This document shows, in pieces, positions 28,622 to 43,809 of a stretch of DNA of 64,000 nucleotides. The translations under genes were made by a program, and so were the position numbers. The stretch is from a virus. Numbering within the stretch: the stretch's first letter is position 1; each line of letters starts with the position of its first letter. The DNA is taken from positions 54,977 through 118,976 of the IMG/VR virus record IMGVR_UViG_3300026533_000002; one strand, 5' to 3'. Under the pieces are notes generated by a model. The model saw nothing but the letters and a program-made list of their open reading frames with translations, made no database searches and was not told where the DNA came from.

Positions 28622-28852
28622 AAATGTAGGGATTCTAACCCTACTCTAAACTCTAGTTAAGTCTGACATTAAATGTCACCCCATTCTGATGTTTTCACCA
28701 AAACCTCCTTAATTAACTTATCAGAGCTTTACGACATTCCCTACTCTGATGTGATGAGCATATGTTTGGCTCAAAGGACTACTCACGATATTAGTAGTAT
28801 CCAGAAGTTCTCAGCCACACTCTACTAAAGCTTACTGAGCAGTTTGCTCATC
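28622..28852 (-). ncRNA. candidate multi-hairpin ncRNA ending in a T-arm-like hairpin
   Basis: At least six hairpins; terminal GTAGGG-TTAGAAT-CCCTAC (28626-28644). Confidence 0.45.
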
Positions 28853-29476: not shown

Positions 29477-29675
29477 TTCTTATCCTTTTAATCTCTACAC
29501 AACTTAATATGTTTAGTTTCTTATCTGACATGTAAACAACTCTTCTATAATCTTCAATAGGGTCATTAGCTTTAACCTTACTCCACACTTCTCCATTAAT
29601 ACAGATACCTTTAACAGTGACTGTATTACTTGGACTAAGTGTTAACATAGTGCTAACTAGTAGTATGAACTTCAT
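29442..29675 (-). CDS. small protein with possible signal peptide
   Basis: Hydrophobic N-terminus. Confidence 0.45.
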   Translation of the reverse strand: MKFILLVSTMLTLSPSNTVTVKGICINGEVWSKVKANDPIEDYRRVVYMSDKKLNILSCVEIKRIRNESKSIKLERD

Positions 29676-30120
29676 TGCCTATAACCTTATCAGTGAAACC
29701 ATGGGCTATAAGTCCTTTATGTTGTTTCACTTCTGTTCTCCATTTAGAGTTTAAATTCTTCCAAGTTGCTTCAGTATACCAGTAAGTTGTACTCCAATCA
29801 AATGCCAGAGCTAACCAATGTTTAGGATTAGCACTTACTACTTTTCTACTAACTCTACTTTCTATGTGAGGAAACCCTTGATTCTTCTTCTTACAGTTAC
29901 TCCAAAATAGTTTAGTCTCGATACCTTCCTTAGCTAACCACTCTTTAAAGTTAAGTACTTTAACATCCTCTCTGTTAGCTATTGCCTTTATCTCTTTTAG
30001 AGCTTTCTCAACAGTAATATCATTTGACTTCACATAATCTAAGATAGTAGCTATCTCTCCTAGTTTCATTGTCTCGGGTGTCTGTGGTTCATACATTATT
30101 AATCCTTTACTTTGATCCAT
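29653..30120 (-). CDS. hypothetical protein
   Basis: AFDW..T..W..L..W pattern; real start may be 30096. Confidence 0.6.
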   Translation of the reverse strand: MDQSKGLIMYEPQTPETMKLGEIATILDYVKSNDITVEKALKEIKAIANREDVKVLNFKEWLAKEGIETKLFWSNCKKKNQGFPHIESRVSRKVVSANPKHWLALAFDWSTTYWYTEATWKNLNSKWRTEVKQHKGLIAHGFTDKVIGNEVHTTS

Positions 30121-30287
30121 TTATATTTACATACATTGTCTTCCAATACTTTTACATATAAGTAACTTGGATGACAACATGCACTACTACTATAAGTAGT
30201 CTTCTTAACTATAGCAGTGCTAATAATTAACACTATTAGTACTATAGATGCTAACGCTGCTAACTTTAACTTAGTAACTTCAGACAT
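30099..30287 (-). CDS. small membrane protein
   Basis: N-terminal TM helix, GGAG RBS. Confidence 0.5.
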   Translation of the reverse strand: MSEVTKLKLAALASIVLIVLIISTAIVKKTTYSSSACCHPSYLYVKVLEDNVCKYKWIKVKD

Positions 30288-30386
30288 TGACTCTCCTATA
30301 AATTACAATGGACAGTTAGAAATCTGTATGTATAACTATTCTCTATATCTGTCTTTATAGCATTAACTGCTTTATGTACCAATACT

Positions 30387-30740
30387 TTAGTTACATTGCT
30401 CATGAGTAACCCTTCCTAAGCCAATATAGAACTTAGCTTCTAATTCTTCTAAATCACCATAGGAGAATAGATCTAATCTATCTATTAACGGTCTAAACAC
30501 ATCTACTATATCTTTAGCTTTATGGCTAGAGTCTAAACATCTCTCTATTCTCTCTAACATTAGTATAACTCCTACATCCCATTGCACAGGATGAAAGAAG
30601 TTAAGATGAAGGTCTTGTTGTTTTCTGAAATCAACAGAATACTTTACCTCTACATTATCCCCTATACTAAACATAGCTACTCTAAATAGCTCCTTTATAT
30701 CGCTATTATTAGTGTATACTTTATATATTACTTTGCTCAT
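30387..30740 (-). CDS. hypothetical protein
   Basis: AAGGA RBS. Confidence 0.55.
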   Translation of the reverse strand: MSKVIYKVYTNNSDIKELFRVAMFSIGDNVEVKYSVDFRKQQDLHLNFFHPVQWDVGVILMLERIERCLDSSHKAKDIVDVFRPLIDRLDLFSYGDLEELEAKFYIGLGRVTHEQCN

Positions 30741-30847
30741 AATCTTCCTTTGACATAATTAGCATTATTAATGCAGTATAAATAAGTAGTATTAAAGGTA
30801 CTCCTACAAATATAAGTACCATTGATGCATCGCTCATAATTATCTCC

Positions 30848-31321
30848 TTATAGACCTAGTTCTACATCATCACCAAATAGAGATACATTAACTTGAAATA
30901 GGTGGGTATGCATTAGTGCTTGCCTTACAGAAGCTATTCTTATATCTTTATCTGTTTGTATAAGATTCCATAGTGCAGGTTTATTAACTTTAATATCCTT
31001 AAATATACGGTTAAGACCTCTAGCTAGGTACATATCAGTGGATTTATAAACTAATAAGTTAATTGATTTACCGCCTAGTTTAAACTTAATGTTATATTTA
31101 TTAAACAATACACTAGTGTACTCCTCAAACTTAACACTAGTTTCATACTTCTCAGGGTCTACATCAATACCTTTATCTTGTAATACTTTGTTTACAGTAT
31201 ACCAATCTTCTACATCTACAGCATAATCATAGTCACTATCTTCTTTGCTACAATCCCAAGCTCTACTACCTATAGCTATTCCTAATACCTTAACTAACTC
31301 ATGTATTGATTCATTACTCAT
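30848..31321 (-). CDS. minimal Pol-beta-type nucleotidyltransferase
   Basis: IGSRAW....DSDYDY motif. Confidence 0.7.
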   Translation of the reverse strand: MSNESIHELVKVLGIAIGSRAWDCSKEDSDYDYAVDVEDWYTVNKVLQDKGIDVDPEKYETSVKFEEYTSVLFNKYNIKFKLGGKSINLLVYKSTDMYLARGLNRIFKDIKVNKPALWNLIQTDKDIRIASVRQALMHTHLFQVNVSLFGDDVELGL

Positions 31322-31423
31322 TATATTTCCTTATTTACTCTATACTTTGCCTATATGGCATTATTACTCTGAAAGGTATAATGATATACCTAAACTGTTA
31401 CTGTAGCTTCTACTAGCCTTATC

Positions 31424-31618
31424 TTAACGATTAACACTAATCTTTTTATGGTAACTATTAATATAATCCATAGGACTGTAAGTGTTATATCCTTTATTAA
31501 TTATAGACACCAGCATGAACTTAGTTCTATTATTAAAGTCACCTGATCTAACTATACTGTTGAATATGTCTACACCTGCTTGAGTCTTAATTGCTTTATG
31601 GAAATGTACCTTAGCCAT
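31424..31618 (-). CDS. small hypothetical protein
   Basis: AAGGA RBS. Confidence 0.5.
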   Translation of the reverse strand: MAKVHFHKAIKTQAGVDIFNSIVRSGDFNNRTKFMLVSIINKGYNTYSPMDYINSYHKKISVNR

Positions 31619-31670
31619 TGCTTATCCTTATATTTAATCTGATACTAACTATACGAGCTAGTATCGTAGT

Positions 31671-32060
31671 TTATATCTTTAATTTCTTAAGAGCTTTAAC
31701 CATCTTCATCTGACTAACAACATATTCTAATGCTTTAATATTAAACTCTTTGTAGTCAGATTCCATTGTAGCTTTTACTTGATTTATTCCAAAAGCACAT
31801 GCAACGACATTACCTTTAATATATCCTTGCTTATTGTCAATTCTATCTAGTGTAAAGCTATTAAATGATAAGTCTCCATACACTCTACCTCTATATAAAG
31901 GTATCTTAGAATAGAAACATCTCTTAGTATTCTGTAACCTTTTATAGTCTCCTAGAGTAAGGCTAAACTCTATACCTTTCTCTTTAGCATACTTTATCTT
32001 AGCTAAGTATCTAATAGCTACAACTTCATCTGTTACTATATAATCTGTTAACTTAGCCAT
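31671..32060 (-). CDS. HNH-like endonuclease domain protein
   Basis: GIEFSLT, CFYS, TLDRIDNKQGYIKGNVVAC..N..K. Confidence 0.75.
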   Translation of the reverse strand: MAKLTDYIVTDEVVAIRYLAKIKYAKEKGIEFSLTLGDYKRLQNTKRCFYSKIPLYRGRVYGDLSFNSFTLDRIDNKQGYIKGNVVACAFGINQVKATMESDYKEFNIKALEYVVSQMKMVKALKKLKI

Positions 32061-32275
32061 TAGAACTCACTTACCATAGTAACTACTACTGACTCAATTA
32101 GACTACCTCTAATATGCACTATTGATTTATCAGATAGCTCTAATGATAATACTTTTATATCATTTAGATGTGATGTACTACTTAATATTCTATTATGATT
32201 CTCATCCATATCGTCTAGTTCTATTGATATGAAAGTATCTCCACTTGTCATTGTTACTTCTAATTTAAACTTCAT
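32060..32275 (-). CDS. small hypothetical protein
   Basis: 71 aa, operonic. Confidence 0.55.
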   Translation of the reverse strand: MKFKLEVTMTSGDTFISIELDDMDENHNRILSSTSHLNDIKVLSLELSDKSIVHIRGSLIESVVVTMVSEF

Positions 32276-32486
32276 TGATTATCCCTTATTTTTAATTTAT
32301 TTACCTCTACAAGAGCTTATATTGCCTAGACATACAAATATATGTCTAAGTTGCCTTTATGTCTTCTACCTACCTTATATACTTGTATATAAGCTCTTAA
32401 GATAGTCTGGTAATAGATAGTAAGTATAGATTAAACCATAGCCTACCATATATGCAATAGTCATATCACATATCATCTCTCCCATA

Positions 32487-33194
32487 TTAGTACTCCAGTA
32501 TTGTTAGTAAGTCTTCTTTATGAGACTCTAGTAACTGTTTAGCCTTTTGTATACTTTTTATATACATACTTGTATCTTGTGCTTTATGTGTATAAACACC
32601 ATCAATAGCCAAACAATCTTCTTGCAACTCTATATAGTAGTTGTATAAATCACTTATACCAAAGTCAGGCTTCCACCCAGCATTTAGCCTAGCAATCTCC
32701 TCCTCTACTCTATACTTAGCCTTCATATAAGCTACTTTAGCGTTTGCTTCTACCTTAGTTTTAAATACTAACCCTAAGCCTGTTAAATAAACATTTACAT
32801 CTAAACTCTTAGACCAGTTTAGATCTGATTTGACCAACCAATCACTACCATCTGTTGGGTCTATATACCAAGCTTCCTCCCCATCAGCAGGAGTCCAAGG
32901 GTTAAAGTCCTCTACTACCGAATAGTTTTTTGCTGGATATACAAACTTACAATATTCTGGGTTACATACAGGAGGTACTATCTTGTCATATATCCCAGCT
33001 ACTGGTATTTTATCTATAAAAGCTTTTCTAATATCACTGTAATCATCATCTAAAGCATAAATAGTAGTAGAGCAGTTAAATGAAGGTCTATGTATTAATC
33101 TCCATTTATCTGACTTTACCCAAATACTCTCTTTATCTAGCTTATAAAAAGCCTCCATCATATCTTTATGTTTAAAATACGCTTCTTTGTTCAT
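32487..33194 (-). CDS. hypothetical phage protein
   Basis: G.VFKT..EA, LN.GW.PDF pattern common in phage proteins. Confidence 0.65.
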   Translation of the reverse strand: MNKEAYFKHKDMMEAFYKLDKESIWVKSDKWRLIHRPSFNCSTTIYALDDDYSDIRKAFIDKIPVAGIYDKIVPPVCNPEYCKFVYPAKNYSVVEDFNPWTPADGEEAWYIDPTDGSDWLVKSDLNWSKSLDVNVYLTGLGLVFKTKVEANAKVAYMKAKYRVEEEIARLNAGWKPDFGISDLYNYYIELQEDCLAIDGVYTHKAQDTSMYIKSIQKAKQLLESHKEDLLTILEY

Positions 33195-33210
33195 CTTATC
33201 TCCTTATAAA

Positions 33211-33495
33211 TTATTCTGTAAATGGTACAAGTATATAACTTGATGTAATTACAGGTTTTGTCTTATGCCCACACTCATTACATACTAGACCAAACTTAGC
33301 AGCTTCGGAAACTACCTCTATTGGAGCAGGCAGTATCTCCTCTATCTCATCATAGCAATCTTTAAACACAGGTAACTCATAAGCTATATCTCCAAAGTAG
33401 TATCTACTTAACGAACAATCTCCAGCTTTACTCTGTCCCTCTACTACCTCTCCACAATTTGGACACTTAAAATATGTATAATCAAACATTCCCAT
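33211..33495 (-). CDS. zinc-ribbon protein
   Basis: MGMFD..CPNCG..QSK..C; second CxxC. Confidence 0.7.
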   Translation of the reverse strand: MGMFDYTYFKCPNCGEVVEGQSKAGDCSLSRYYFGDIAYELPVFKDCYDEIEEILPAPIEVVSEAAKFGLVCNECGHKTKPVITSSYILVPFTE

Positions 33496-33622
33496 TACTT
33501 ATCCTTTATACTAATAACAGATTCTGTTATATATTGTTAATTATACTTCTCAGTATAAGACATATTAATATCTAGCCATACAAATACCATTATTGCAATC
33601 ATTATTAGTGTATCTATCATAG

Positions 33623-33811
33623 TTAATCCTTAAATAAAGTAGCTAACTCATGTTTAGCTACAAAGCTTCTATCTTTATTCCAAGCTCTAATATTAGCTTT
33701 ATATCTTCTCATAGTGCCTGACATAGCTAATGTTGGTCTAGGTTGCTCTACTACTTTACTAACTTGGCTCTCTATTTTCCTATACCCAAATCCATGTCTT
33801 TCAAATGTCAT
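33623..33811 (-). CDS. small hypothetical protein
   Basis: AAGGA RBS. Confidence 0.5.
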   Translation of the reverse strand: MTFERHGFGYRKIESQVSKVVEQPRPTLAMSGTMRRYKANIRAWNKDRSFVAKHELATLFKD

Positions 33812-33828
33812 TGCATTTATCCTTATAT

Positions 33829-34104
33829 TTAATCTTGCATTAGTTTGTATACTTTATATAGGTTACTAACATCTTCGCCTATAATGTAGACATAACTCTT
33901 CTTATCTTTCAATACTATCAACTTACCTAAGTCTTTAAGAGTTCTAATAGCTCTCTTAACTGTCTTTATACTAATATCTAAATCATTAGCAATCTGGTAT
34001 TGGTCTGTAATAGTAGTACTAGAACATAAGTAGTTACTTACATTCTTAACACTATCTATCTCATTAAAATGCCATTCATAGCTTTTACTAAATACTTTAA
34101 TCAT
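33829..34104 (-). CDS. winged HTH DNA-binding protein
   Basis: QYQIANDLDISIKTVKRAIRTLKDLG. Confidence 0.8.
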   Translation of the reverse strand: MIKVFSKSYEWHFNEIDSVKNVSNYLCSSTTITDQYQIANDLDISIKTVKRAIRTLKDLGKLIVLKDKKSYVYIIGEDVSNLYKVYKLMQD

Positions 34105-34111
34105 AGACAGA

Positions 34112-34957
34112 TTACATACTAGTGTCGTAATGCTCTAGATCATCATCTATCATGGCAGGCTGTGCCAGAGGTTTCTCTAGTGATTTGTATGCTGTATTTA
34201 TAGTGTTTATGAGCATTATCTTAGTACCAACATCTACAGCGCTATTACGTCCTATAGAGCTCCAGAACATATATCTACCAGTTTCAGTGCGTAACATACT
34301 GTCGTAGTCTATATGCTCCTCAGCATTAGTTGACAGTGCAAGCTCACTCTCAGTATTGACGGCAGAAGCCTCTGCCTCTTCGTTTTTAGCTAGTAATGTT
34401 TTTAATACTAATAAGGATTTAGTATGTTCAACAGTCTCTGTTCCAAATACTGTTACTTTTACTCTCTTTCCTGCCATTAGATCTAAGTAGTACTTAGCGT
34501 TATATGCTGCGTTATCTAGTATGAATTGAGCAGCTATAATATACCTACGATTACTTAGTCCAGTTAACTTCATAGCTGCTGTCTGTGTGTATCCATAAGA
34601 CTTTATCAGTGCTACTGTCTTAAATGCCTTTTGGTTGGTAGAGTCATTTCTAGCTGCAAATGTATTAAGGTTAGACAATGCTATACAGTCTTTATCCTCT
34701 AGGTCATCTACTACATCTCTTGCTAATACATCTATTCCTAACTCAATAGCTACTTTACTCCTATGTCTCCCGTCAATTACTAAGCCATTTCTTATAATGA
34801 TTGGATCTATTTGCCCCAGCTTTATCATTAATGTCTTTAAAGCATTGTACTCATCTATAGGTTTTACTTGATTAAAGCCTGCTATCTTAGTATCGAATTT
34901 AAGTGTGTTAGGATTAAGCTTGTAGCTATCACCTTTCCATATATCTAGATTAGTCAT
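34112..34957 (-). CDS. ParB/Srx N-terminal domain protein
   Basis: GQIDPII..LVIDGRHR..A..LG. Confidence 0.8.
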   Translation of the reverse strand: MTNLDIWKGDSYKLNPNTLKFDTKIAGFNQVKPIDEYNALKTLMIKLGQIDPIIIRNGLVIDGRHRSKVAIELGIDVLARDVVDDLEDKDCIALSNLNTFAARNDSTNQKAFKTVALIKSYGYTQTAAMKLTGLSNRRYIIAAQFILDNAAYNAKYYLDLMAGKRVKVTVFGTETVEHTKSLLVLKTLLAKNEEAEASAVNTESELALSTNAEEHIDYDSMLRTETGRYMFWSSIGRNSAVDVGTKIMLINTINTAYKSLEKPLAQPAMIDDDLEHYDTSM

Positions 34958-35095
34958 TTATTTATTTCCTTTGTTGTAGTCTCTCACTAACATTGCTATT
35001 ACAGCACCAATTGTAGGCATACCTACCTCTTCCTTGATCTTCTTCAGATCATCTCTAGTTCTTTCGTTCAACTTAATTGCTACACTTACACTCAT
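34958..35095 (-). CDS. ribbon-helix-helix protein (45 aa)
   Basis: Not in track; AAGGA RBS; MSVSVAIKLNERTRDDLKKIKEEVGMPTIGAVIAMLVRDY. Confidence 0.65.
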   Translation of the reverse strand: MSVSVAIKLNERTRDDLKKIKEEVGMPTIGAVIAMLVRDYNKGNK

Positions 35096-35511
35096 AAATG
35101 TCCTTTTCTATTTATTTATACTGGCAGTATACTACAAGTAACCTTATAGTAAACTAATATGGTTATTTGGTAGGACAATGTCCTAATCCGCAATCCTTTA
35201 AATAGGTAAATTATCCGCACTGTTAAGTACTACTATAGTATTACAACCAGAAAATATTTTCCATATAGTCTCTCCTTACATTAATTAAAAGCTATACTTT
35301 ACATATAAGCTCTTATATCTCTTATCTATACTAATTAGACACCTAAGTACTAACTATTGCTATTAGATACCTAATATACACTTATAATTACTAATAAGGT
35401 AATAAGAAAAAAGAAAAAGGCACTCCGCCTGGAGACCGTCGGTAGACAATAGATAGAGGGAAGATGAAGAGCGAGGCCACGAGTGATGAATCTTGTCCTC
35501 CTATTGCTCTT

Positions 35512-35548
35512 GAAAAAAATAAGGATACCTACCGCTAAGGGTAAGTAT
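35512..35548 (-). terminator. intrinsic terminator after the RNAP gene
   Basis: Minus-strand stem AUACUUACC/GGUAGGUAU (one G-U), then U-tract. Confidence 0.7.
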
Positions 35549-35602
35549 TATTTCTTTAATTATCTATCCTTTAAAATTAATTAAGTAACACCAATTAAGG
35601 TG

Positions 35603-37303
35603 CTACATGCAGTTATAAGACTCTACTATATCTATTCTATCTGGAATATTCCATCCTCTATAGATACCAGTCTGAGCCTCAATCTCTTGTAGTTGCTTCT
35701 CAGCTAGCCCTCTCATTCTATTAAGACTTTCGAATGTAAGTTGCTTAATTAATGGCAGTGCACTAGGTTTTGAGTAGAAAGCATCTAAAATTGTCTTACA
35801 AGGAATACCTCTTCTATGTAGCCCCATTTGGATGTAATGCTCGGTCGCAGAATCACTTGAGTGTACTATTGAAACTGCTAATCCAGAGTACTTCTTAGTT
35901 CCATTACCTGAGTTAGAGAACGGCATAATAGAATCAATACTGCTTCCGTCTTCCATACTAACTTGAGCATCTAACATGTAAGGTGCCCATATAGCCTTAA
36001 CACCATCAACTCTAGTAAACTGTACATTATTTACTCCAGCTTCAGCTAGTTTTCTACCATACTCAGCTGTTTTAGCGTTATAGAAGAAACTTTCACCAAA
36101 TATCTCAGTTACCATATCCATATCCTCAGGCTTTACAGTAGCTCCATGCATGTAGGGTTGCTGTACGAGCTTTGCCTCATCTCTAGTAATCCCTAGGTAG
36201 TCTGCAACTAGTGAATGAGCATCATACTTAGTTTCTCCTCCTAGTAAATTTGCTACTTTTAAGAATTGCTCATCACCCCACAAGTTTGATGCATTAATGT
36301 TTCCACTTGCAATAAAATCATACCCTACTACACTTCTACTCATTCTACCTTCAGCACATATTATATTATCAAATACATCTACAATATGAAGTAGCTTACC
36401 TAATTCTTTATGTCCAATAGTAAATTCTACATATTTACCTTTATTATAATCTTCAAGTAAAGTAGAGTTATAATTAATCTTGGCTATAGAATCTTTAACT
36501 AGTACTCTATAATCATCTGATTTAAACTCATTCTCTAAGTATTTAATAGCATACTTGATCTCAGTAGCATCAACTAAATACTCTTGAGCTGGTTCAATAA
36601 GATATTTCTCAAAAGCATCTCCGTAGTCATAAGCAAAGCCATATCTAGATAATGAATAATTACGAGTATTACTATCAAGTTTACGGTAATTAGTATAAGT
36701 ATGCCCAAGAAACACTTTAGTCTCCTCAGCTACCTCTTGTAATCTTTCCCAATAGTTAGCTTCATTAACTTTAGATTTATTAGTTTCATAAAGTAATACT
36801 TTATATAAATCAATATACTCAGGAGCTATTTCCTTTATACGCATATCAATCTCAGCCTTCTCACTAAGTACCTTAGTAGAATTGTTTTCTACTTTCTTCT
36901 TACTACCTTTCAATATAATATAATCTTGGAAGCTACTCACTTCTTTAAACCAAACCTTAGTCTTAACCTCTTTCTCTCTTTGACCAACGATAGTAGATGT
37001 AGTATGAGTAAACATATTTCCATCCTTATCTATAGTAGTAGCTATCTTATCTTCAAACTTAAACTTCATAGCTTTAACTACTATATTTACTCTTATAAGT
37101 AAAGCTTTCTTAAAGTTATATGAGCCATCATTTACATCTATAATACATTCTAAACTTAGTAAAGCATTAGCTACATTACCTACTAGCATAGATACTGTCA
37201 TCTCATTAGCTACTATATTTCTTACAGTTGCTACAATTAATTGGTTATCTAGTGCTTTAAGTGCTTTAAATGCCGGTTTTAATATAAGTGGGTATTTTTT
37301 CAT
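35603..37303 (-). CDS. single-subunit T7-like DNA-directed RNA polymerase (N4 RNAPII-like, single chain)
   Basis: DxxGR-like LDSNTRNY, motif A GYDFIASG, motif B RDEAKLVQQPYMHG, IVHSSDS, motif C TILDAF. Confidence 0.85.
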   Translation of the reverse strand: MKKYPLILKPAFKALKALDNQLIVATVRNIVANEMTVSMLVGNVANALLSLECIIDVNDGSYNFKKALLIRVNIVVKAMKFKFEDKIATTIDKDGNMFTHTTSTIVGQREKEVKTKVWFKEVSSFQDYIILKGSKKKVENNSTKVLSEKAEIDMRIKEIAPEYIDLYKVLLYETNKSKVNEANYWERLQEVAEETKVFLGHTYTNYRKLDSNTRNYSLSRYGFAYDYGDAFEKYLIEPAQEYLVDATEIKYAIKYLENEFKSDDYRVLVKDSIAKINYNSTLLEDYNKGKYVEFTIGHKELGKLLHIVDVFDNIICAEGRMSRSVVGYDFIASGNINASNLWGDEQFLKVANLLGGETKYDAHSLVADYLGITRDEAKLVQQPYMHGATVKPEDMDMVTEIFGESFFYNAKTAEYGRKLAEAGVNNVQFTRVDGVKAIWAPYMLDAQVSMEDGSSIDSIMPFSNSGNGTKKYSGLAVSIVHSSDSATEHYIQMGLHRRGIPCKTILDAFYSKPSALPLIKQLTFESLNRMRGLAEKQLQEIEAQTGIYRGWNIPDRIDIVESYNCM

Positions 37304-37398
37304 GGAGTAAGTCCTTTAAGTAATAGCTACTCTTTATTTAGTAGCTATAGGGTTATTTAACAGTGGTAATAATATTTTACAATTTTTAAGTGTCTAGC

Positions 37399-38343
37399 CT
37401 ACCAAGCAGCATCTTCTACTAATTTCTTAGTAGCTTCTGTAGTTTCTTCCACTCCATTAATTACTTTAGCTACAGCCATATTGAACTCTCTAGAAGTCAC
37501 AGGTAATGTGCCTTTAGCAACCTCTTCTTTATAGGCTTTAAATGTTGCTTCAAGTATAAATACATCAAGAGCGTTAGTCTTTCCTTCACGCATATTAGCT
37601 AAGTAACCTAAGTTGCCAACATCAGTCTTTCTCTTATCAGTTAAATACTCATAAGCAAGTAATCTACCATCTTTCAGTACTAATGAGCTTTTACCTGTGT
37701 CAAGTTTCACTAACGCTAGTACATTAGCTAGCTTCCCTTCTAACACCTCTATTCTTGTTGGGGCTTCACCTAGTGCAGTTGTTCTTTTAAGACTACTAGT
37801 TTTAATATGGTCTTTTAGCTCATCTAAAAGGTCATACTTCATTTTAAGACCTGTATTCATTGATAGTATAGACATCTCTAACTCTGTGCTTAAATCTTTG
37901 AACAACACTAAACTTAGTTGATGTGCATCCATTTCTGAGTATTCTAACTCATCCATAAATGCAAATCTATCTTCAGTCTCTTCATCTAACTCAATCTCAG
38001 GTATATCTATTACCTCTTCAATATGAGCTTCAAAGCCTGCTAGGTTAATAATAAAGTTACAAGCATGTAATGCATCAGTATCAGTAATATTACCGTTATA
38101 GTAAGCTACTAAGTCCTCACCAGAGTAAGGCATAGAAGTAAATACTTTACAGTTAAGGTTGTTATATACTTTTCTAATAGTTAAAGCAAAGTCTCTATCC
38201 TCAGCTCTTAGTATATTTAAAGCATCATTGATTTCAGTGCTAGTCTCTTTAGTTAATTTGTATTGCATTGTAATCTCCTCAGATTTAGTTGTAGTAGTTT
38301 CATTAGCATTTGTGTTGTTAGTAGTAGTTTGGTTGTTATTCAT
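37399..38343 (-). CDS. early hypothetical protein
   Basis: 314 aa, N/T-rich N-terminus. Confidence 0.65.
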   Translation of the reverse strand: MNNNQTTTNNTNANETTTTKSEEITMQYKLTKETSTEINDALNILRAEDRDFALTIRKVYNNLNCKVFTSMPYSGEDLVAYYNGNITDTDALHACNFIINLAGFEAHIEEVIDIPEIELDEETEDRFAFMDELEYSEMDAHQLSLVLFKDLSTELEMSILSMNTGLKMKYDLLDELKDHIKTSSLKRTTALGEAPTRIEVLEGKLANVLALVKLDTGKSSLVLKDGRLLAYEYLTDKRKTDVGNLGYLANMREGKTNALDVFILEATFKAYKEEVAKGTLPVTSREFNMAVAKVINGVEETTEATKKLVEDAAW

Positions 38344-38403
38344 AATTATTTCCTTTATGTAGTTATAGGTAGACTAGCATTTCAGCTAGCACATTAGTAG
38401 TTA

Positions 38404-38718
38404 TTAAGACTTAGGAGCAGTAGCAAATCCTATAGCAAGTAACTCAGTTATTTCATCATGAAAGGCTTCATTAGTTATTCTAGGTCTATTATCAGCTTTA
38501 ACTTTAGTAACTAGCTCAGCTCTCTCTGCGGCATAGTCTAGCTCACTCTCAGCTGAGTAGAGTACTAGCTTATTGTTAAGTTGTTTAGTTAACTCTTTAG
38601 TTCCTTCTAATACTAAATCAGCATTATCCTCTAAGATAGCGGCAGATTTAAATATAAACTTACGGTAGATAGTTAATACGATTAGTATAGATGCTAATAG
38701 TGCTATTCCTTCAAACAT
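38404..38718 (-). CDS. early membrane-anchored protein
   Basis: N-terminal TM; resembles 41436..41813. Confidence 0.65.
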   Translation of the reverse strand: MFEGIALLASILIVLTIYRKFIFKSAAILEDNADLVLEGTKELTKQLNNKLVLYSAESELDYAAERAELVTKVKADNRPRITNEAFHDEITELLAIGFATAPKS

Positions 38719-38768
38719 TGGTAGATCCTTTATAAGTAGGGCTTACATCTCTAGGAATGCCTTTATAG

Positions 38769-39203
38769 TTATACGTCTTCTTTCTTTATAATAAGTACAT
38801 CATGTAGATGCTCTGGATATAAAGCTATTCTAATTGATAAGTGATCAACAGGTACATCATTAAGATAAGGCTTATATTTAACTAAGGTATATGTATATAA
38901 TACTTCTAAGTCAGACTTACTAGTAACTTCATATATCCTAGCGTTATGCCATACAAACTTATCTTCATACTTAGCTTTAAACTCTTTCAAGTCCTTATCA
39001 ATACTAATGCTTTTACCTACGAATACAATCTTCTTATGACTATATATAAAGTAAAGGCATTGCTTAGGTCTAGGCTTCTCCTTATAGTATAAAGTAGTAA
39101 GGAATCCTTTCCTTTGAGCTATTAAATACTTAGGGTAATTCTTAGCTTTAAACTCTTCTTTAGAGCTATACTGAGAGGCTATCTCTTTTAGTTCTGTTAA
39201 CAC
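38769..39203 (-). CDS. GIY-YIG-like nuclease
   Basis: CLYF...VFVGKS, LE, KP.LN; N-terminal ASQYSSKEEFK repeat unit. Confidence 0.6.
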   Translation of the reverse strand: MLTELKEIASQYSSKEEFKAKNYPKYLIAQRKGFLTTLYYKEKPRPKQCLYFIYSHKKIVFVGKSISIDKDLKEFKAKYEDKFVWHNARIYEVTSKSDLEVLYTYTLVKYKPYLNDVPVDHLSIRIALYPEHLHDVLIIKKEDV

Positions 39204-39365
39204 TTTTATGTCCTTTATTATTAAATATATAATTCTCCGATATACAAACTAAATGTTGTAGTTATGAGAGTTACATACTTAGCTTGTATGGAGTTTTAAC
39301 TAGTTAGAGGATAACTAGTATGGGTAGAAGTTTTAAGGCCTTGTAGGCTCTTATATAGACTAAGT

Positions 39366-39545
39366 CTAATGACTATATGATCTAATGCTAGTACCAGCAG
39401 TAGCTAGTATAAATCTATGGTAAGTTCTTAGGAATGACCCTAATGTTTTATCTCTAAATGTAAGGTCTTTAGCGTTATAGTTTACTAGAGATATAAGGAA
39501 GTTATTATCTCCTTTATATACTCTTTTAATGTTATCATTACACAT
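39366..39545 (-). CDS. small early protein (59 aa)
   Basis: Not in track; AAGGA RBS; MCNDNIKRVYKGDNNF... Confidence 0.5.
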   Translation of the reverse strand: MCNDNIKRVYKGDNNFLISLVNYNAKDLTFRDKTLGSFLRTYHRFILATAGTSIRSYSH

Positions 39546-39613
39546 AATGTCTATCCTTTTGTTTGGTTTAGTATTAAGTTACTTATCTATTAGTTTAGAT
39601 GAAGGACTTAACC

Positions 39614-39653
39614 CACCACTTAACTTGTGCCGATAGACGGAGTCCGGCACTAA
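39614..39653 (-). promoter_or_regulatory. conserved hairpin element, putative phage RNAP promoter 3
   Basis: Plus strand CACCACTTAACTT-GTGCCG-ATA-GAC-GGA-GTC-CGGCAC-TAA. Confidence 0.65.
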
Positions 39654-40383
39654 TAAGATAGGTAGATTAGGTTATATGGAATGTGTTACTAGTAGTAGGT
39701 GTAATCTTAAAGTTAGCTGGAAAACACCTGATATCGTTGTTTTTTACTTAGTGAAAGATACCTTTTCAGGTGTTTAAATCTAGCTCAAAGTAAGTGTAGT
39801 ACGAGGTTTACCCCTATTGTATAATAAATATAAAGGCAGTACTATTCTCTCATGTGTCCTTATATAAGAGTATAAATGGAGGACTTAGTTTGGTGTCGGT
39901 TAGATTTGGACTAGATAAGAGTAGGTATTAGTTCTTATAAGAGTAGTATCTATCCTTATATAATAAGTAGCTAATAATAGTAGTTATCTTAAGTGAACCT
40001 TAAGAGCTACTAGTACCAAACCCCTATAATAGGGAGTTTGCTATGTTCTAAATAGTAGCTACTTGTAGCTATTTTATCAGTAGCTACTTTCCATCCCTTT
40101 ATATATAAGTACTATAAAAGGGTTACTTTTATGAGCATGGCTTATACGGTTTACCGGTAGCGGTTATTATTGAAGTCACATTGTGGATAGTTAGGTTCAA
40201 TAATAGGAGGTTAGTTTTAGGAGGTTAGTTTGTTGTTGAGTTGGTACTAGCCTTTGGTTGGGATGGTGAATACCTTGTACCAGAAAGTACCTTTCTTATA
40301 CTATAAGGAAAAGGTACAGCAAAGTACTCCAAACCCCGTAGCCAAGGGCCTTACAGGGAATTGGGTAGTCATCACAGTAGTGA

Positions 40384-40827
40384 CTACTTGAACTTATTAA
40401 ATCCCATATTTAGTACTATTGCTTCCCTTGGTATATTACCTTTGTGGTGTATCATTTGTATGAACTCCCATACCTTCTGCTCATCGCCTTTTACAGCTAG
40501 TAATGGGTTTACTATGAACTCATGGTCTAGTTGGAGCTTATTTATGAGATTACTCTGCTTTAACCTACTAATTGAGTTGCGTATTGTAGCTACTGTGTAT
40601 CCAGTGTCTCTCTTTAGAAGCTTTAGTGTGTCGCCATCTACTATAATATGGTTAGTATTAGTGCTGATATAAGTCATAATAGAGTCTAGTACACGTCTAT
40701 CATCAGATCTAAGGTCCTTGAACACTTTAAATGCTTTGTTGTTAGTCTGCAGAGTAATTCTACCTCTAGTGCCTTTAACTGCTTGTACTTTAACTCCACT
40801 TGGTCTGTTTGTCAATGATGCCATCAT
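40384..40827 (-). CDS. RepL-like winged-HTH protein
   Basis: GYTVATIRNSISRLKQSNLI...FIVNPLLAVKG; start at 40827 after AAGGA. Confidence 0.65.
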   Translation of the reverse strand: MMASLTNRPSGVKVQAVKGTRGRITLQTNNKAFKVFKDLRSDDRRVLDSIMTYISTNTNHIIVDGDTLKLLKRDTGYTVATIRNSISRLKQSNLINKLQLDHEFIVNPLLAVKGDEQKVWEFIQMIHHKGNIPREAIVLNMGFNKFK

Positions 40828-40863
40828 ATTTCCTTTAGTTTTAATAGTGTAATTATAACACTT

Positions 40864-40901
40864 CACCCCTTAACTTGTACCGTTGCGGAGCTAGGTACTA
40901 A
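40864..40901 (-). promoter_or_regulatory. conserved hairpin element, putative phage RNAP promoter 2
   Basis: Plus strand CACCCCTTAACTT-GTACC-GTT-GC-GGA-GC-TA-GGTAC-TAA. Confidence 0.65.
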
Positions 40902-41115
40902 ACACTAAGAGTAATAAAGTTAATTGTTGTAGTGACTAGCTAATATGAGTAGTAGATAAGATTATGATAAGAGAAGTAAGGTATCTCCTCTATCTTAAGA
41001 TCTCTCTCCTCTGCTAGTGTGTTAGTGGTGTACAGCTTTTAGTGTTCAGCTCTTAATTAGTAGAGACGAGGTACGAGTATTACCTCTGCTCTTGCTCTTT
41101 GTGTACATGGAAATG

Positions 41116-41149
41116 AAAAAATAAACCCTACCCCAATGAAGGAGTAGAG
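41116..41149 (-). terminator. intrinsic terminator after the first early operon
   Basis: Minus-strand CUCUACUCC/GGGGUAGGG stem, then UUUAUUUUUU. Confidence 0.7.
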
Positions 41150-41165
41150 ATGTTGTTATTGCTAG

Positions 41166-41378
41166 TTAAGAAAGTAATGGAGCTAGGCCACTATAGAGAA
41201 GTTCCCACGCTTCATCAGAGCACCACTCTTCAAAGTGAATTTCATTACAAGTAGGGTAACTACTAGCAATGTACTCTGGATCTTCCAGGTAAGCAGTACG
41301 TTCATACTCTTCGCCTCTTGTATAGTCTGTAGTTGTAGCAAGTTCTTCTTCTGTTAGTATTTGTACGAATGATTTCAT
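41166..41378 (-). CDS. small acidic early protein
   Basis: AAGGA RBS; very acidic. Confidence 0.6.
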   Translation of the reverse strand: MKSFVQILTEEELATTTDYTRGEEYERTAYLEDPEYIASSYPTCNEIHFEEWCSDEAWELLYSGLAPLLS

Positions 41379-41435
41379 TATAAGTCCTTTTATTTAAGTA
41401 ATGGTAAGCCAGCTAATTAAAGCTAGCAACTAATG

Positions 41436-41813
41436 TTATGTTTGAGGTACAAAGTCTGACGTAGTAGTATTTGATGGAGCTGAAGCAATACCTTCTGCAA
41501 TACGTTGAGCTATTCTGTCATTGTATATTTCTTCAGCTGATTTGTTAAGAGTACCAGTTGTAGTTACACCATTAGCTATTGCTTCATCGGCAATGTTATT
41601 AATATTAGTAACGTGAGTGGATCGAGCACTAATACGTGCTTCAGCTAGTGCCATATCACCAATCTTTATACCTGTAGACATAGCTCTGCCTACGAACTCT
41701 ATACCTTCACCAGTAGTATCTAATAGTTTAGCAGAGTTATCAAAGAACTTAGAGAGTGCTTTACCTGCAAAGAATAGTAGTGCGATGATTGCGATGATTG
41801 ATGCGATTTCCAT
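41436..41813 (-). CDS. early membrane-anchored protein
   Basis: N-terminal TM helix; GGAG RBS. Confidence 0.65.
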   Translation of the reverse strand: MEIASIIAIIALLFFAGKALSKFFDNSAKLLDTTGEGIEFVGRAMSTGIKIGDMALAEARISARSTHVTNINNIADEAIANGVTTTGTLNKSAEEIYNDRIAQRIAEGIASAPSNTTTSDFVPQT

Positions 41814-42289
41814 TAGTTAGCTCCTGTGATGATTGAGTTGAATGTAGTTCTTAGTTTAACTACACGACTGTTGTATATACCTGTATTAATAACTCTATGT
41901 ATAAGGTCACGATCTGTTGTAGATACAGCACCTTCCATTGACATACCAAGTTGTTGTCTGATAGTATTGAAGAAGTCAGTACGTATCTTATCTAGGTTAG
42001 ATGTTTTAAGGTAGTTACCTTCTTTAGCTTGTTTGTAAGCATCAGCTACTGATAGACCAGCTTGTTGAGTAAACTGACCAATGATACCACTGTTGTATAC
42101 TTTAAACTCTTCATGCTCTGAGTGCATAGATACTATTACTTCTATTGGATAAGCTTCTGTCATTGATACAGTGATTGCATCAATTAGAGTATTCATAACA
42201 GTTTCATCTTGAGAAGAAGTAGTTGTAGTTTGAGCTACAGGAGTAGCAGCAGTAGTTGGTTTACCAGTTGTATTAGGTACGAAAGACAT
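41813..42289 (-). CDS. first early gene, hypothetical protein
   Basis: AAGGGA RBS; Thr-rich N-terminus. Confidence 0.7.
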   Translation of the reverse strand: MSFVPNTTGKPTTAATPVAQTTTTSSQDETVMNTLIDAITVSMTEAYPIEVIVSMHSEHEEFKVYNSGIIGQFTQQAGLSVADAYKQAKEGNYLKTSNLDKIRTDFFNTIRQQLGMSMEGAVSTTDRDLIHRVINTGIYNSRVVKLRTTFNSIITGAN

Positions 42290-42337
42290 ATTAGTCCCTT
42301 TGTTTTAAGATTACAAGTAGTATTAAACTAAATGTAT

Positions 42338-42375
42338 CATCACTTAACTTGTTTCGTAGCAGAGCTAGGAACTAG
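42338..42375 (-). promoter_or_regulatory. conserved hairpin element, putative phage RNAP promoter 1
   Basis: Plus strand CATCACTTAACTT-GTTTC-G-TAGC-AGA-GCTA-GGAAC-TAG. Confidence 0.65.
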
Positions 42376-42954
42376 GTGTCCAGGATTTAGGTACCCTATT
42401 TGTAGAGGAAGTATGGGGGGGTATAGGGGAGGTCGAGGTGGGAATGTGTGCATACTAAACTTCTCACAAAAAATGATCAATATGTCAAAAAGTAAAATCC
42501 TAATCAGGCCAAATCAGAAATATTTTTAGTCGAAAAGTAAAAACCACTTCTAAGGCTAGTTACGAGGTAATAACCGTAAAACTAGTAAATACATAACCTC
42601 ATTTCTAGAAAAATAAAAAATATTTAGAAAAGTAAAAGGTACATTAGTTAGCTATAAGCACACGTAGGTTATAATAATCATTTTAAGCACTATATTAGTT
42701 ACGATAATACTTACTAGGTATATTTACCTACCTAGCGCTTATCGGTCCATATAGGCAAAGTATAGGTCATTTACTACTACACCTAAGTAAGTACTAATAT
42801 AGGAAGCTATATAAGTAAATCTAAGGTACCTTATGCAACATTATTCACAATAAGGTACATTTACTTACCTTAGTTACGATCGTAGCTTGTAGAGCTTGTG
42901 AGAGTTAACCTTATAGTTCATATTATAATTACTACTACATGGACTATTTTGTTA

Positions 42955-42963
42955 TGCTATAAT
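42955..42963 (+). promoter_or_regulatory. extended -10 sigma70 promoter
   Basis: TGCTATAAT ~40 nt upstream of the first plus-strand gene. Confidence 0.5.
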
Positions 42964-43002
42964 CCTTTTCACAAATAAAGTTAATGTATAAGGAGGCTTA
43001 CT

Positions 43003-43191
43003 ATGGTTAAGTTTAGTAACACTACTAATGATACTGAGGTAATTGATATTGAGATGAGTATTAGTGATGAGGATATTAGTATAAGACCTCTACTTAATAT
43101 GTTTATTCAGTTTGTAGTAGCTAGCTCTTATAGTAGAGAAGCTTTAGTACAAGCTATGAAAGGATATATAAATGAATACGAAACTAAGTAA
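43003..43191 (+). CDS. small hypothetical protein
   Basis: AAGGAGG RBS. Confidence 0.6.
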   Translation: MVKFSNTTNDTEVIDIEMSISDEDISIRPLLNMFIQFVVASSYSREALVQAMKGYINEYETK

Positions 43192-43321
43192 AAAGACTAA
43201 GTATTGTAGTAAATGTAAGAAAGAAGTTAGAGTAGTAGAGACTGGTGTATTTAATGTACTACTTTGTGGTAAGTGTAATACTATACTTAGTAGCGATATT
43301 GGTATAGATAAGAGTAATTAA
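43172..43321 (+). CDS. small zinc-ribbon protein (49 aa)
   Basis: Not in track; YCSKC...LCGKC; AAGGA RBS. Confidence 0.55.
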   Translation: MNTKLSKKTKYCSKCKKEVRVVETGVFNVLLCGKCNTILSSDIGIDKSN

Positions 43322-43326
43322 CTACC

Positions 43327-43749: not shown

Positions 43750-43755
43750 CTACTA

Positions 43756-43784
43756 TTGACACTTATTACTTTTTAACCTATAAT
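43756..43784 (+). promoter_or_regulatory. consensus sigma70 promoter
   Basis: TTGACA-17 nt-TATAAT. Confidence 0.85.
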
Positions 43785-43809
43785 GAATTATATAAATTAA
43801 AGGTTAGTA

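What the first reader, a model, noticed from the sequence alone, without database searches (positions are those of the whole stretch)
35603..37303. Miniature single-chain T7-like RNA polymerase with substituted active-site motifs
Seen: one 566-aa ORF carries a DxxGR-like motif (DSNTR), motif A (DFIASG), motif B (R-x3-K-x7-HG) and motif C (ILDAF). Established: N4 RNAPII is a heterodimer (gp15 with DxxGR, gp16 with motifs A, B and C), T7 RNAP is 883 aa, T7 Y639 in motif B discriminates NTP from dNTP, and motif C is normally HD. Here the Y639 position is His and the H811 position is Leu, while both catalytic Asp residues remain. Inference: a fused or ancestral, unusually small RNAPII that may have relaxed sugar selectivity or a primase-like role.
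Basis: partly seen in the sequence, partly recalled or inferred. Interest (0 to 1): 0.8.

Follow-up and report, generated by a model that had tools for sequence, protein, structure and literature searches.

The report
Compact T7-like phage RNA polymerase
An uncultured 119-kb N4-type phage encodes a 566-residue single-chain RNA polymerase of the T7 family, about two thirds the size of T7's enzyme, with two unusual active-site substitutions conserved across its relatives; it most likely transcribes the phage's middle genes.

Summary
ORF 35603-37303 (-) encodes 566 aa. A family HMM maps its D210, D329, R374, H386, H481 and D507 onto T7 D421, D537, R627, Y639, H784 and D812.

The AlphaFold model (pLDDT 92.2) matches only mitochondrial and T7 RNA polymerases in the 41 PDB rows listed (best E 3.6e-13). 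Pfam gives no hit.

The genome is a complete 119-kb N4-supergroup phage with a split virion RNA polymerase. The gene lies downstream of three hairpin elements whose tip matches N4 early promoters. It is therefore best read as the N4 RNAPII (middle transcriptase) equivalent in one chain.

- **His at the Y639 position:** found in all 59 relatives that cover the site, including the annotated RNA polymerase of cultured Alteromonas schitoviruses.
- **Leu at the H811 position:** marks the roughly 565-aa clade.
- **Tree:** favours a derived, reduced enzyme over an ancestral one.
- **Altered sugar selectivity or a primase role:** nothing supports either, and the phage has its own primase and DNA polymerase.
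- **Neighbour:** a conserved 272-314-aa protein of unknown fold always sits just upstream.

Verdict: a new variant of a known kind. The scan had already noted this stretch in another window (e1-6149948).

The parts
35603..37303 (-). 566-aa compact T7-family single-subunit RNA polymerase. Key residues: DxxGR-like D210/R214, motif A D329, motif B R374/K378/H386/G387, H481/D484, and motif C L506/D507.
   Evidence: ORF. AF2 model with pLDDT 92.2 and pTM 0.88. Foldseek PDB and BFVD results. Invariant residues. Mapping onto T7 numbering.
37399..38343 (-). Conserved upstream neighbour: 314 aa, acidic (pI 4.66), mostly helical, of unknown fold. It is a candidate cofactor or partner of the polymerase.
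   Evidence: A homologue (272-279 aa, 34-40% identity) lies immediately upstream of the polymerase homologue in 4 of 4 related viral loci. Five homologues were found. There are no Pfam or PHROG hits. The AF2 model has pLDDT 74.5. Foldseek PDB gives nothing at E<=0.001.
39614..39650 (-). Hairpin element 1: an outer 6-bp stem, an inner stem with a TCC tip, then ACAAGTTAAG. It is a candidate early promoter for the virion RNA polymerase, upstream of the operon that holds the polymerase gene.
   Evidence: (families D5/D6).
40863..40900 (-). Hairpin element 2, with a GC-TCC-GC tip identical to the N4 hairpins upstream of gp2 and RNAP1.
42337..42374 (-). Hairpin element 3, the most upstream copy, at the divergent switch region.
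35525..35548 (-). Terminator-like hairpin (9-bp stem followed by a T-rich tail), 55 nt after the polymerase stop codon. It may mark the end of the early operon.
   Evidence: This is a consensus match only: 7 sites were found against 3.4 +/- 1.8 in shuffles.

Best explanation
The ORF encodes an active DNA-dependent RNA polymerase of the T7 / mitochondrial / N4 single-subunit family, reduced to about 565 residues.

In this N4-supergroup phage it most likely plays the part of N4 RNAPII. The injected virion RNA polymerase transcribes a short leftward early operon from hairpin promoters. That operon ends with the conserved partner gene and the polymerase gene. The new polymerase then transcribes the leftward replication and nucleotide-metabolism (middle) genes, possibly with the partner's help.

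Catalysis would be the usual two-metal mechanism on D329 and D507, with R374 and K378 on the NTP phosphates. His386 would take over the 2'-OH contact of T7 Tyr639. Leu506 replaces the non-essential His811.

Shown: the fold, the motif equivalence, family-wide conservation, the phage type and the gene position. Inferred: the activity, the timing, the template, and the roles of His386 and of the partner.
For: **Fold.** The AF2 model has pLDDT 92.2. All 41 Foldseek PDB rows listed (ranks 1-50) are yeast or human mitochondrial RNAP or T7 RNAP, with best E 3.6e-13 and TM by query 0.43-0.58. In BFVD the named hits among the top 32 rows are phage RNA polymerases (many rows carry no name), with best E 7.5e-14. 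DNA polymerases appear first at rank 41, at E 4e-4.

**Sequence bridges.**
- Distant homologue P0043 passes the Pfam RNA_pol cut-off (31.2 against 22 bits).
- The family HMM scores N4 gp16 at 47.5 bits and T7 at 41.7 bits.
- The A1 profile hits the PT11-V19 'RNA polymerase' at E 9.6e-26 and the PT15-A5 'RNA polymerase 2' at E 3.8e-6.

**Catalytic residues.** They are invariant in 20 homologues and map onto T7 D421, D537, R627, Y639, H784 and D812.

**Phage type.** phrog_2206 (virion RNA polymerase) matches a 2696-aa ORF (E 2e-61) and a 1310-aa ORF (E 1.9e-117) of the same genome. Two related complete genomes carrying the compact polymerase also carry the virion enzyme.

**Position.** Three hairpin elements lie upstream. 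Their GC-TCC-GC tip equals the hairpins found upstream of N4 gp2 and RNAP1 in EF056009. A terminator-like hairpin follows the gene.

**His-Gly in a working phage.** Cultured Alteromonas schitoviruses have a His-Gly enzyme as their only RNA polymerase apart from the virion one. The R22Y paper reports two RNA polymerase genes (PMC11705849, passages).
Against: - Pfam gives no hit for the protein itself. PHROGs gives only an unnamed family at E 6e-4.
- The A1 profile finds no RNA polymerase in PDB sequences. phmmer against PDB reaches only E about 0.4.
- Two canonical active-site residues are replaced (Tyr639 to His, His811 to Leu), and the Gly of DxxGR is Thr or Ser. No enzyme with these residues has been assayed. 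A search for 'Y639H' found 0 papers.
- No T7-style repeated promoter was found in the genome, so the template and promoter are unknown.
- Searching the genome with N4 gp2 and gp15 found nothing. The tool itself calls such an empty result uninformative.
- The early timing rests on resemblance of the hairpin elements to N4 promoters and on gene position, not on transcript data.
Confidence: 0.78

Rival explanations
1. Obligate two-protein enzyme. On this reading the compact polymerase is only the catalytic core. The conserved 314-aa upstream protein supplies promoter recognition, DNA melting or template recruitment that the lost N-terminal and specificity-loop segments once provided. It would act like N4 gp1/gp2 or the mitochondrial factors Mtf1/TFB2M. 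This refines the best explanation and does not exclude it.
For: - The partner gene is immediately upstream in 4 of 4 related loci, while the other neighbours differ. L012 and L013 have the same gene order, so this amounts to three independent contexts plus this genome.
- Partner homologues P0046 and P0048 list longest-contig lengths of 21511 and 35380. These equal the lengths listed for polymerase homologues P0002 and P0004.
- The compact family lacks about 211 residues before DxxGR relative to T7, and about 50 between motif B and H784. Its specificity-loop region is shorter than in the 670-aa relatives.
- The N4 review states that most T7-like RNAPs other than T7 need cofactors (PMC4496689, passages).
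Against: - The partner shows no detectable similarity to T7 RNAP, N4 gp15, PT15-A5 RNA polymerase 1 or the PT11-V19 polymerase (hhalign probabilities <=0.33%).
- It has no Pfam or PHROG hit and no structural match at E<=0.001. The Atlas structural rows all have TM <=0.35.
- Conserved adjacency alone does not show binding.
Confidence: 0.35
2. A polymerase with relaxed sugar selectivity, or a replication primase. His at the Tyr639 position and Leu at the His811 position would let the enzyme take dNTPs or modified NTPs, or it would mainly make primers.
For: - The substituted position is the one that senses the 2'-OH in T7 RNAP. That T7 Y639F incorporates dNTPs is recalled knowledge and does not come from any call here.
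- T7-family polymerases prime replication in T7 and in mitochondria (also recalled).
- Leu-Asp in motif C was seen in none of the reference enzymes aligned: T7, N4 gp16 and PT15-A5 RNAP2.
Against: - His can still donate or accept a hydrogen bond, unlike Phe (inference).
- His is present in 59 of 59 relatives, including the RNA polymerase of cultured schitoviruses.
- The H784 equivalent (H481) is present in all 56 rows that cover it.
- The genome encodes its own primase (phrog_2135: E 9.6e-45 and 9.5e-24 in two adjacent ORFs), a family-A DNA polymerase (phrog_15971, E 3e-46) and a helicase.
- The structural matches to RNA polymerases are about ten orders of magnitude better than those to DNA polymerases.
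Confidence: 0.1
3. A catalytically dead RNA-polymerase-like protein kept for a structural or regulatory role.
For: Departures from three canonical motif residues, and no Pfam hit.
Against: Both metal-binding Asp residues, R374, K378, G387, H481 and D484 are invariant across homologues down to 36% identity. The family-wide census shows D329 in 60 of 60 and D507 in 55 of 55 rows that cover them.
Confidence: 0.03

Closest known systems
N4 RNAPII (gp15 + gp16; 'RNAP1'/'RNAP2' of Schitoviridae)
   Same: - A T7-family polymerase encoded by a phage that also carries a virion RNA polymerase.
- Located in the early region, behind hairpin elements with the same GC-TCC-GC tip.
- A reduced N-terminal domain and thumb. 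The review calls the 673-aa N4 RNAPII 'one of the smallest members' (PMC4496689, passages).
- The family HMM scores gp16 at 47.5 bits, and the A1 profile hits PT15-A5 RNA polymerase 2.
   Different: - One chain of 566 aa instead of 269 + 404 aa.
- His-Gly and Leu-Asp instead of Tyr-Gly and His-Asp.
- DxxT/SR instead of DxxGR.
- No gp1 or gp2 homologue was found (uninformative).
- A different conserved neighbour.
- The A1 profile does not hit the N4 genome directly.
Single-chain RNA polymerase of Alteromonas schitoviruses vB_AmeP_PT11-V19 and vB_AmeP-R22Y (670 / 667 aa)
   Same: - The closest cultured relatives: tblastn gives 27% and 23% identity over residues 318-527, and the A1 profile gives E 9.6e-26.
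- Single chain.
- In phages with a virion RNA polymerase.
- His-Gly in motif B.
   Different: - About 100 residues longer, with an N-terminal extension and insertions after motif B and in the specificity-loop region.
- Keeps His-Asp in motif C.
- Has Ser in place of the Asp of DxxGR.
- No 300-aa gene upstream.
- Their genomes are 68-71 kb, against 119 kb here.
T7 RNA polymerase (883 aa) and mitochondrial RNA polymerases (Rpo41, POLRMT)
   Same: The same fold, and the same catalytic Asp, Arg, Lys and His784-type residues at equivalent positions.
   Different: - 317 residues shorter than T7: about 211 before DxxGR, 45 between motifs A and B, 50 between motif B and H784, and 12 at the C-terminus (computed).
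- Y639 is His and H811 is Leu.
- No Pfam PF00940 hit.
Other small phage single-subunit RNA polymerases in BFVD (phiEcoM-GJ1 648 aa, Vibrio phage phiV141 673 aa)
   Same: They are among the best structural matches (E 2.4e-13, TM by target 0.46-0.47). They are single chains well under 700 aa.
   Different: They are 80-110 residues longer. Their motif residues were not examined here.

Membership tests
T7-like single-subunit RNA polymerase (Pfam PF00940 RNA_pol; T7, mitochondrial, N4) | Right-hand T7-type polymerase fold | tested here: met
   The AF2 model has pLDDT 92.2. All 41 listed Foldseek PDB rows are T7 or mitochondrial RNAPs, with probability 1.00 and E down to 3.6e-13.
T7-like single-subunit RNA polymerase (Pfam PF00940 RNA_pol; T7, mitochondrial, N4) | Two metal-binding Asp residues (motif A D537, motif C D812) | tested here: met
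   D329 and D507 map to T7 537 and 812 and are invariant in 20 homologues.
T7-like single-subunit RNA polymerase (Pfam PF00940 RNA_pol; T7, mitochondrial, N4) | Motif B R-x3-K-x7-Y-G, with Tyr at the 639 position | tested here: not met
   R374, K378 and G387 are present, but position 386 is His in 59 of 59 family rows. T7, N4 gp16 and PT15-A5 RNAP2 have Tyr.
T7-like single-subunit RNA polymerase (Pfam PF00940 RNA_pol; T7, mitochondrial, N4) | Motif C His-Asp | tested here: not met
   Leu506-Asp507. Across the family, the position is Leu in 29, His in 25 and Tyr in 1 of the 55 rows that cover it.
T7-like single-subunit RNA polymerase (Pfam PF00940 RNA_pol; T7, mitochondrial, N4) | DxxGR motif, specific to RNA polymerases of this superfamily | tested here: inconclusive
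   D210 and R214 are kept at the same spacing and map to T7 D421 and R425. The Gly is Thr here. Across the family the position is Thr in 10, Ser in 14 and Gly in 28 rows.
T7-like single-subunit RNA polymerase (Pfam PF00940 RNA_pol; T7, mitochondrial, N4) | Score above the Pfam gathering threshold for PF00940 | tested here: not met
   There were 0 Pfam families at E<=1. Only a distant relative, P0043, passes (31.2 bits).
T7-like single-subunit RNA polymerase (Pfam PF00940 RNA_pol; T7, mitochondrial, N4) | DNA-templated RNA synthesis | not testable with these tools
   This needs a biochemical assay.
N4 RNAPII (schitovirus middle transcriptase) | Encoded by a phage that has an N4-type virion RNA polymerase | tested here: met
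   phrog_2206 matches two ORFs of the genome, and it is also present in 2 of 3 searched related records.
N4 RNAPII (schitovirus middle transcriptase) | Heterodimer of a DxxGR subunit and a motif A/B/C subunit | tested here: not met
   All motifs lie in one 566-aa ORF. The upstream neighbour shows no similarity to gp15 or RNA polymerase 1.
N4 RNAPII (schitovirus middle transcriptase) | An early gene transcribed from virion-RNAP hairpin promoters | tested here: inconclusive
   Three hairpin elements with an N4-like tip lie upstream on the coding strand. No transcript data are available.
N4 RNAPII (schitovirus middle transcriptase) | Sequence relationship to gp16 / RNA polymerase 2 | tested here: met
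   The A1 profile hits PT15-A5 RNA polymerase 2 at E 3.8e-6. hhalign gives E 1.5e-4 and probability 51%. The family HMM scores N4 gp16 at 47.5 bits. The relationship is weak but consistent.
N4 RNAPII (schitovirus middle transcriptase) | Cofactors gp1 and gp2 | tested here: inconclusive
   A gp2 search of the genome found nothing, and the tool states that an empty answer shows nothing. gp1 was not searched.

The most novel reading that the evidence does not exclude
The roughly 565-aa His-Gly/Leu-Asp enzymes would be the smallest natural T7-family RNA polymerases. They would work differently from T7 in one of two ways, or both. Either the natural Tyr639-to-His and His811-to-Leu changes alter nucleotide-sugar selectivity, or the core has handed promoter recognition to a new, structurally unassigned 300-aa specificity subunit encoded just upstream. 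The second option would make this a new two-component design for single-subunit-type polymerases.
Probability: 0.15. Interest if true: 0.8.

Novelty: new variant of a known kind. Interest (0 to 1): 0.5.

Why it matters
T7-family RNA polymerases are workhorses of in vitro transcription and synthetic biology, and size limits their delivery and fusion. The N4 review calls the 673-aa N4 RNAPII one of the smallest members (PMC4496689, passages). This family is a further 100 residues shorter and in one chain, so it marks out what a minimal natural T7-type polymerase keeps.

It also offers natural variants at two textbook positions (Tyr639 and His811), conserved over dozens of sequences. Those variants can test what the residues really do.

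For phage biology, it shows that 93-119-kb N4-supergroup phages pair a split virion polymerase with a single-chain second polymerase plus a conserved unknown partner. That departs from the association between a virion RNAP and a heterodimeric RNAPII described in 2015.

Tried and rejected
**Searches on the polymerase itself that gave nothing useful**
- Pfam on the protein gave nothing.
- The A1 profile against PDB sequences gave only a spurious transport-protein hit at E 0.33.
- hhalign of A1 against the single T7 sequence gave a wrong, low-probability alignment (7.6%). I replaced it with the wider family HMM.
- PF00940, N4 gp2 and N4 gp15 searched in the phage's own genome gave empty answers, which the tool calls uninformative.

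**Tests on the 314-aa partner**
- Complex prediction of the polymerase with the partner returned 'no answer' (best score 0.26, mark 0.32). I treat this as no evidence either way.
- The partner also gave no Pfam or PHROG hit, no Foldseek PDB match at E<=0.001, and nothing usable in the protein Atlas.
- It showed no hhalign similarity to T7 RNAP, N4 gp15, PT15-A5 RNA polymerase 1 or the PT11-V19 RNAP.
- I therefore rejected the idea that it is a detached N-terminal domain of the polymerase. The idea came from 314 + 566 = 880, close to T7's 883.

**Promoter hunt**
- Exact k-mers and 16-mers with up to 3 mismatches in upstream regions gave only ribosome-binding-site contexts (ATTAAATAAAAGGAT-like, 13 sites). 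TATGCTATAAT occurred three times before plus-strand genes. No long T7-style promoter emerged.
- A loose hairpin scan gave mostly chance hits and did not find the element in related loci.
- Sigma-70-like sites are not enriched (28 against 34.6 expected).
- Rfam found no match in 30000-45000, and there are no tRNAs in the window.

**Expression**
- No RNA holder is listed for 35000-40000.

**Literature**
- Searches were. 'Y639H' gave 0 papers.
- No paper on a roughly 565-aa single-subunit RNA polymerase turned up. These searches cover only the held library.
- Papers were read as passages only: PMC4496689, PMC11705849, PMC10654107 and PMC11880802.
- No supplements were consulted. Host and taxonomy tables of PMC10654107 may bear on this lineage.

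**Limits on what could be done**
The geometry of H386 and L506 in the active site and an exact domain-by-domain superposition on T7 could therefore not be checked.
Full report
**The sequence.** The minus-strand ORF 35603..37303 starts with ATG and encodes 566 residues.

The window is the right-hand 64 kb of a 118,976-bp IMG/VR virus record rated 100% complete. GC content is about 33%. Strand polarity switches near 42.3 kb, with leftward genes below and rightward genes above.

**Is it a polymerase of the T7 type?** Direct sequence evidence is thin.
- Pfam gives no hit.
- PHROGs gives only an unnamed family at E 6e-4.
- phmmer against PDB reaches E about 0.4. Even so, it aligns residues 427-531 to the C-terminal palm of human mitochondrial RNAP, matching SIVHSSDS to NFIHSLDS and ILDAFYS to VHDCYWT.
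- A profile of close homologues found no RNA polymerase in PDB sequences.

Structure settles the question. With a 20-sequence alignment, AlphaFold2 gave pLDDT 92.2 and pTM 0.88. All 41 Foldseek rows listed for PDB (ranks 1-50) are yeast or human mitochondrial RNAP or T7 RNAP, with E from 3.6e-13 and probability 1.00. In BFVD the named hits at the top are phage DNA-directed RNA polymerases (best E 7.5e-14). DNA polymerases appear only at ranks 41 and 50, near E 1e-3.

Sequence bridges agree.
- A distant homologue (P0043, 558 aa) passes the Pfam RNA_pol cut-off, and N4 gp16 does too.
- An HMM of 14 family members built without T7 or N4 scores N4 gp16 at 47.5 bits and T7 RNAP at 41.7 bits.
- The A1 profile finds the annotated RNA polymerase of Alteromonas phage PT11-V19 (E 9.6e-26) and 'RNA polymerase 2' of the schitovirus PT15-A5 (E 3.8e-6).

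**Residue equivalence.** hmmalign to the family HMM puts query D210, D329, R374, H386, H481 and D507 on T7 D421, D537, R627, Y639, H784 and D812. This agrees with the MAFFT alignment. In 20 homologues that are 36-73% identical to the query, these residues and R214, K378, G387 and D484 are invariant.

**How unusual are the substitutions?** I collected 64 family rows from three database searches.
- **Tyr639 position:** His in 59 of the 59 rows that cover it.
- **His811 position:** Leu in 29, His in 25 and Tyr in 1 of the 55 rows that cover it.
- **Gly of DxxGR:** Gly in 28, Ser in 14 and Thr in 10 rows.
- **References:** T7, N4 gp16 and PT15-A5 RNAP2 have Tyr. T7 and PT15-A5 RNAP2 have His-Asp, as does N4 gp16 by the HMM alignment.

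His-Gly therefore marks a whole clade. That clade includes the 670-aa polymerase of cultured Alteromonas phages PT11-V19 and R22Y. Passages of the R22Y paper describe them as Schitoviridae with two RNA polymerase genes, one of them the virion enzyme (PMC11705849).

Leu-Asp is confined to the compact family and a few long-branch relatives.

**Tree.** I built a maximum-likelihood tree of the catalytic half with 55 rows. Fourteen rows lacking motif A or motif C were dropped, among them N4 gp16, whose motif C did not align.
- The compact Leu-Asp family (24 rows, 538-593 aa) is a clade with 99/100 support on a long stem.
- It joins four long-branch rows in a weaker group (85/82).
- That group is sister to the His-Asp group, which is mostly 640-703 aa and includes two rows of 555 and 558 aa.
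- T7 and PT15-A5 RNAP2 fall outside.

The root is by midpoint only, and long branches make the deep order unsafe. Taken at face value, Tyr-to-His came first, and His-to-Leu and the size reduction came later. The enzyme then looks derived, not ancestral. Whether the single chain was retained or re-fused cannot be told.

**What was lost.** From the mapped positions, the protein is shorter than T7 by:
- about 211 residues before DxxGR;
- 45 between motifs A and B;
- 50 between motif B and the H784 position;
- 12 after motif C.

The model still shows two short helices before DxxGR where the thumb should be. It also shows a beta-hairpin at 442-461 where T7 has its specificity loop. That assignment rests on alignment, not on superposition, because I could not reach the coordinates.

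**Genome context.**
- **Virion polymerase.** phrog_2206 (virion RNA polymerase) matches a 2696-aa ORF (profile positions 643-2041) and a 1310-aa ORF (positions 2341-3390), with a 1883-aa ORF between them.
- **Nearest cultured relatives.** By the C-terminal part these are Alteromonas and Vibrio schitoviruses and the roughly 100-kb Alteromonas AD45 phages. The split virion polymerase of those phages is mentioned in PMC10654107 (passages).
- **Uncultured relatives.** Two related complete genomes with terminal repeats (92.9 and 107.7 kb) carry both the compact polymerase and the virion enzyme. A 28-kb fragment gave no match, and one record was not held.
- **Replication genes.** The genome has its own primase (two adjacent ORFs), family-A DNA polymerase, helicase, ligase and ribonucleotide reductase.

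The dedicated primase and DNA polymerase argue against a primase or DNA-synthesis role for this protein.

**Position in an early operon.** Three copies of a roughly 38-nt element lie at 39614, 40863 and 42337, all in the leftward orientation.
- The 10-mer ACAAGTTAAG occurs three times in the 119-kb genome, only in these elements.
- Each element has an outer stem with a compensatory change. The stems are GTGCCG/CGGCAC and GTACC/GGTAC, and GTTCC/GAAAC with one mismatch that becomes G-T on the template strand.
- Each also has an inner stem capped by TCC or TCT.
- In the N4 record, GAAGC-TCC-GCTTC lies upstream of gp2 and AAGCTGC-TCC-GCAGCTT lies upstream of RNAP1. I recall these as the N4 early promoters P2 and P3 for the virion polymerase.

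The polymerase gene and its upstream neighbour lie downstream of element 1. A terminator-like hairpin follows 55 nt after the stop codon, although that is a consensus match only. This is the layout expected for an early gene product that then drives middle transcription, as in N4 (PMC4496689, passages).

**A conserved partner.** In 4 of 4 related viral loci, the gene immediately upstream of the polymerase homologue is a homologue of window ORF 37399..38343. These homologues are 272-279 aa and 34-40% identical. Other neighbours differ between loci. Two of the loci share the same gene order, so there are three independent contexts besides this genome.

The protein is acidic (pI 4.66) and mostly helical (pLDDT 74.5, pTM 0.40). 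It has no family or fold assignment and no similarity to polymerase N-terminal domains. It may be a cofactor, but adjacency is all that is shown.

**Verdict.** This is a real, conserved, compact T7-family RNA polymerase, most likely the RNAPII-type middle transcriptase of an N4-supergroup phage. It is a new variant of a known kind for four reasons:
- it is smaller than any enzyme named in the papers I read;
- it is a single chain where the 2015 review found heterodimers in all but two vRNAP-encoding species;
- it has family-wide His-Gly and clade-specific Leu-Asp;
- it has a conserved unknown neighbour.

What evidence exists leans against them.

The family is rare in the databases: 22 clusters among 5.8 billion proteins, and 24 representatives at E<=0.001 among 1.84 billion. 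DNA holders of the stretch are hydrothermal-vent metagenomes.

Noticed in passing
window 39614-39650, 40863-40900, 42337-42374 (minus-strand orientation): There are three copies of a nested hairpin followed by ACAAGTTAAG. The outer stem carries a compensatory change. The GC-TCC-GC tip equals the hairpins upstream of N4 gp2 and RNAP1 in EF056009. They are candidate early promoters for the virion RNA polymerase. The scan has already noted them as e1-6164878.
   Followed up: partly
G000 13255-21345, 21345-26996 and 27008-30940 (left of the window): The virion RNA polymerase is split. The 2696-aa ORF matches phrog_2206 positions 643-2041, and the 1310-aa ORF matches positions 2341-3390. A 1883-aa ORF with no PHROG hit lies between them.
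   Followed up: partly
G000 48997-49890 and 49890-51293 (minus strand, left of the window): The DNA primase family phrog_2135 is divided over two adjacent ORFs. The 467-aa ORF matches profile positions 24-389, and the 297-aa ORF matches positions 463-706. Together with the split virion polymerase and the split DNA polymerase noted earlier by the scan, this shows gene splitting is frequent in this genome.
   Followed up: no
window 34958-35602: A 645-bp stretch downstream of the polymerase gene has no ORF of 50 aa or more. It holds two terminator-like hairpins on the minus strand (35548-35525 and 35430-35418) and a 45-aa ORF at 34958-35095.
   Followed up: partly
window 39204-40383: This is a 1180-bp gap with no ORF of at least 60 aa in my greedy call (a 59-aa ORF lies at 39366-39545), inside the early region. 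It contains hairpin element 1. Rfam found nothing there.
   Followed up: partly
window, upstream of about 13 genes (e.g. 2415, 12439, 23439, 25971, 35581; minus strand): A recurring AT-rich leader, ATTAAATAAAAGGAT, lies directly before start codons. It is probably the ribosome-binding context, but it could overlap AT-rich middle promoters of the N4 type.
   Followed up: no
plus-strand intergenic regions of G000 (positions not recorded): TATGCTATAAT occurs three times upstream of rightward (structural) genes and nowhere else in the genome. It resembles an extended -10 box, as expected if the host RNA polymerase makes the late transcripts.
   Followed up: no
window 40384-40866 (-) and 34112-34957 (-): The early region also encodes a 160-aa protein that passes the Pfam RepL cut-off (22.3 against 20.3 bits). 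A 281-aa protein there has weak ParB-like PHROG matches.
   Followed up: no
window 16008-17483 (-), 66-1277 (-), 21953-22792 (-): Auxiliary genes lie among the leftward block: a nicotinamide phosphoribosyltransferase (E 2e-172), a tRNA nucleotidyltransferase (E 1e-95) and a CobS-like AAA+ protein.
   Followed up: no
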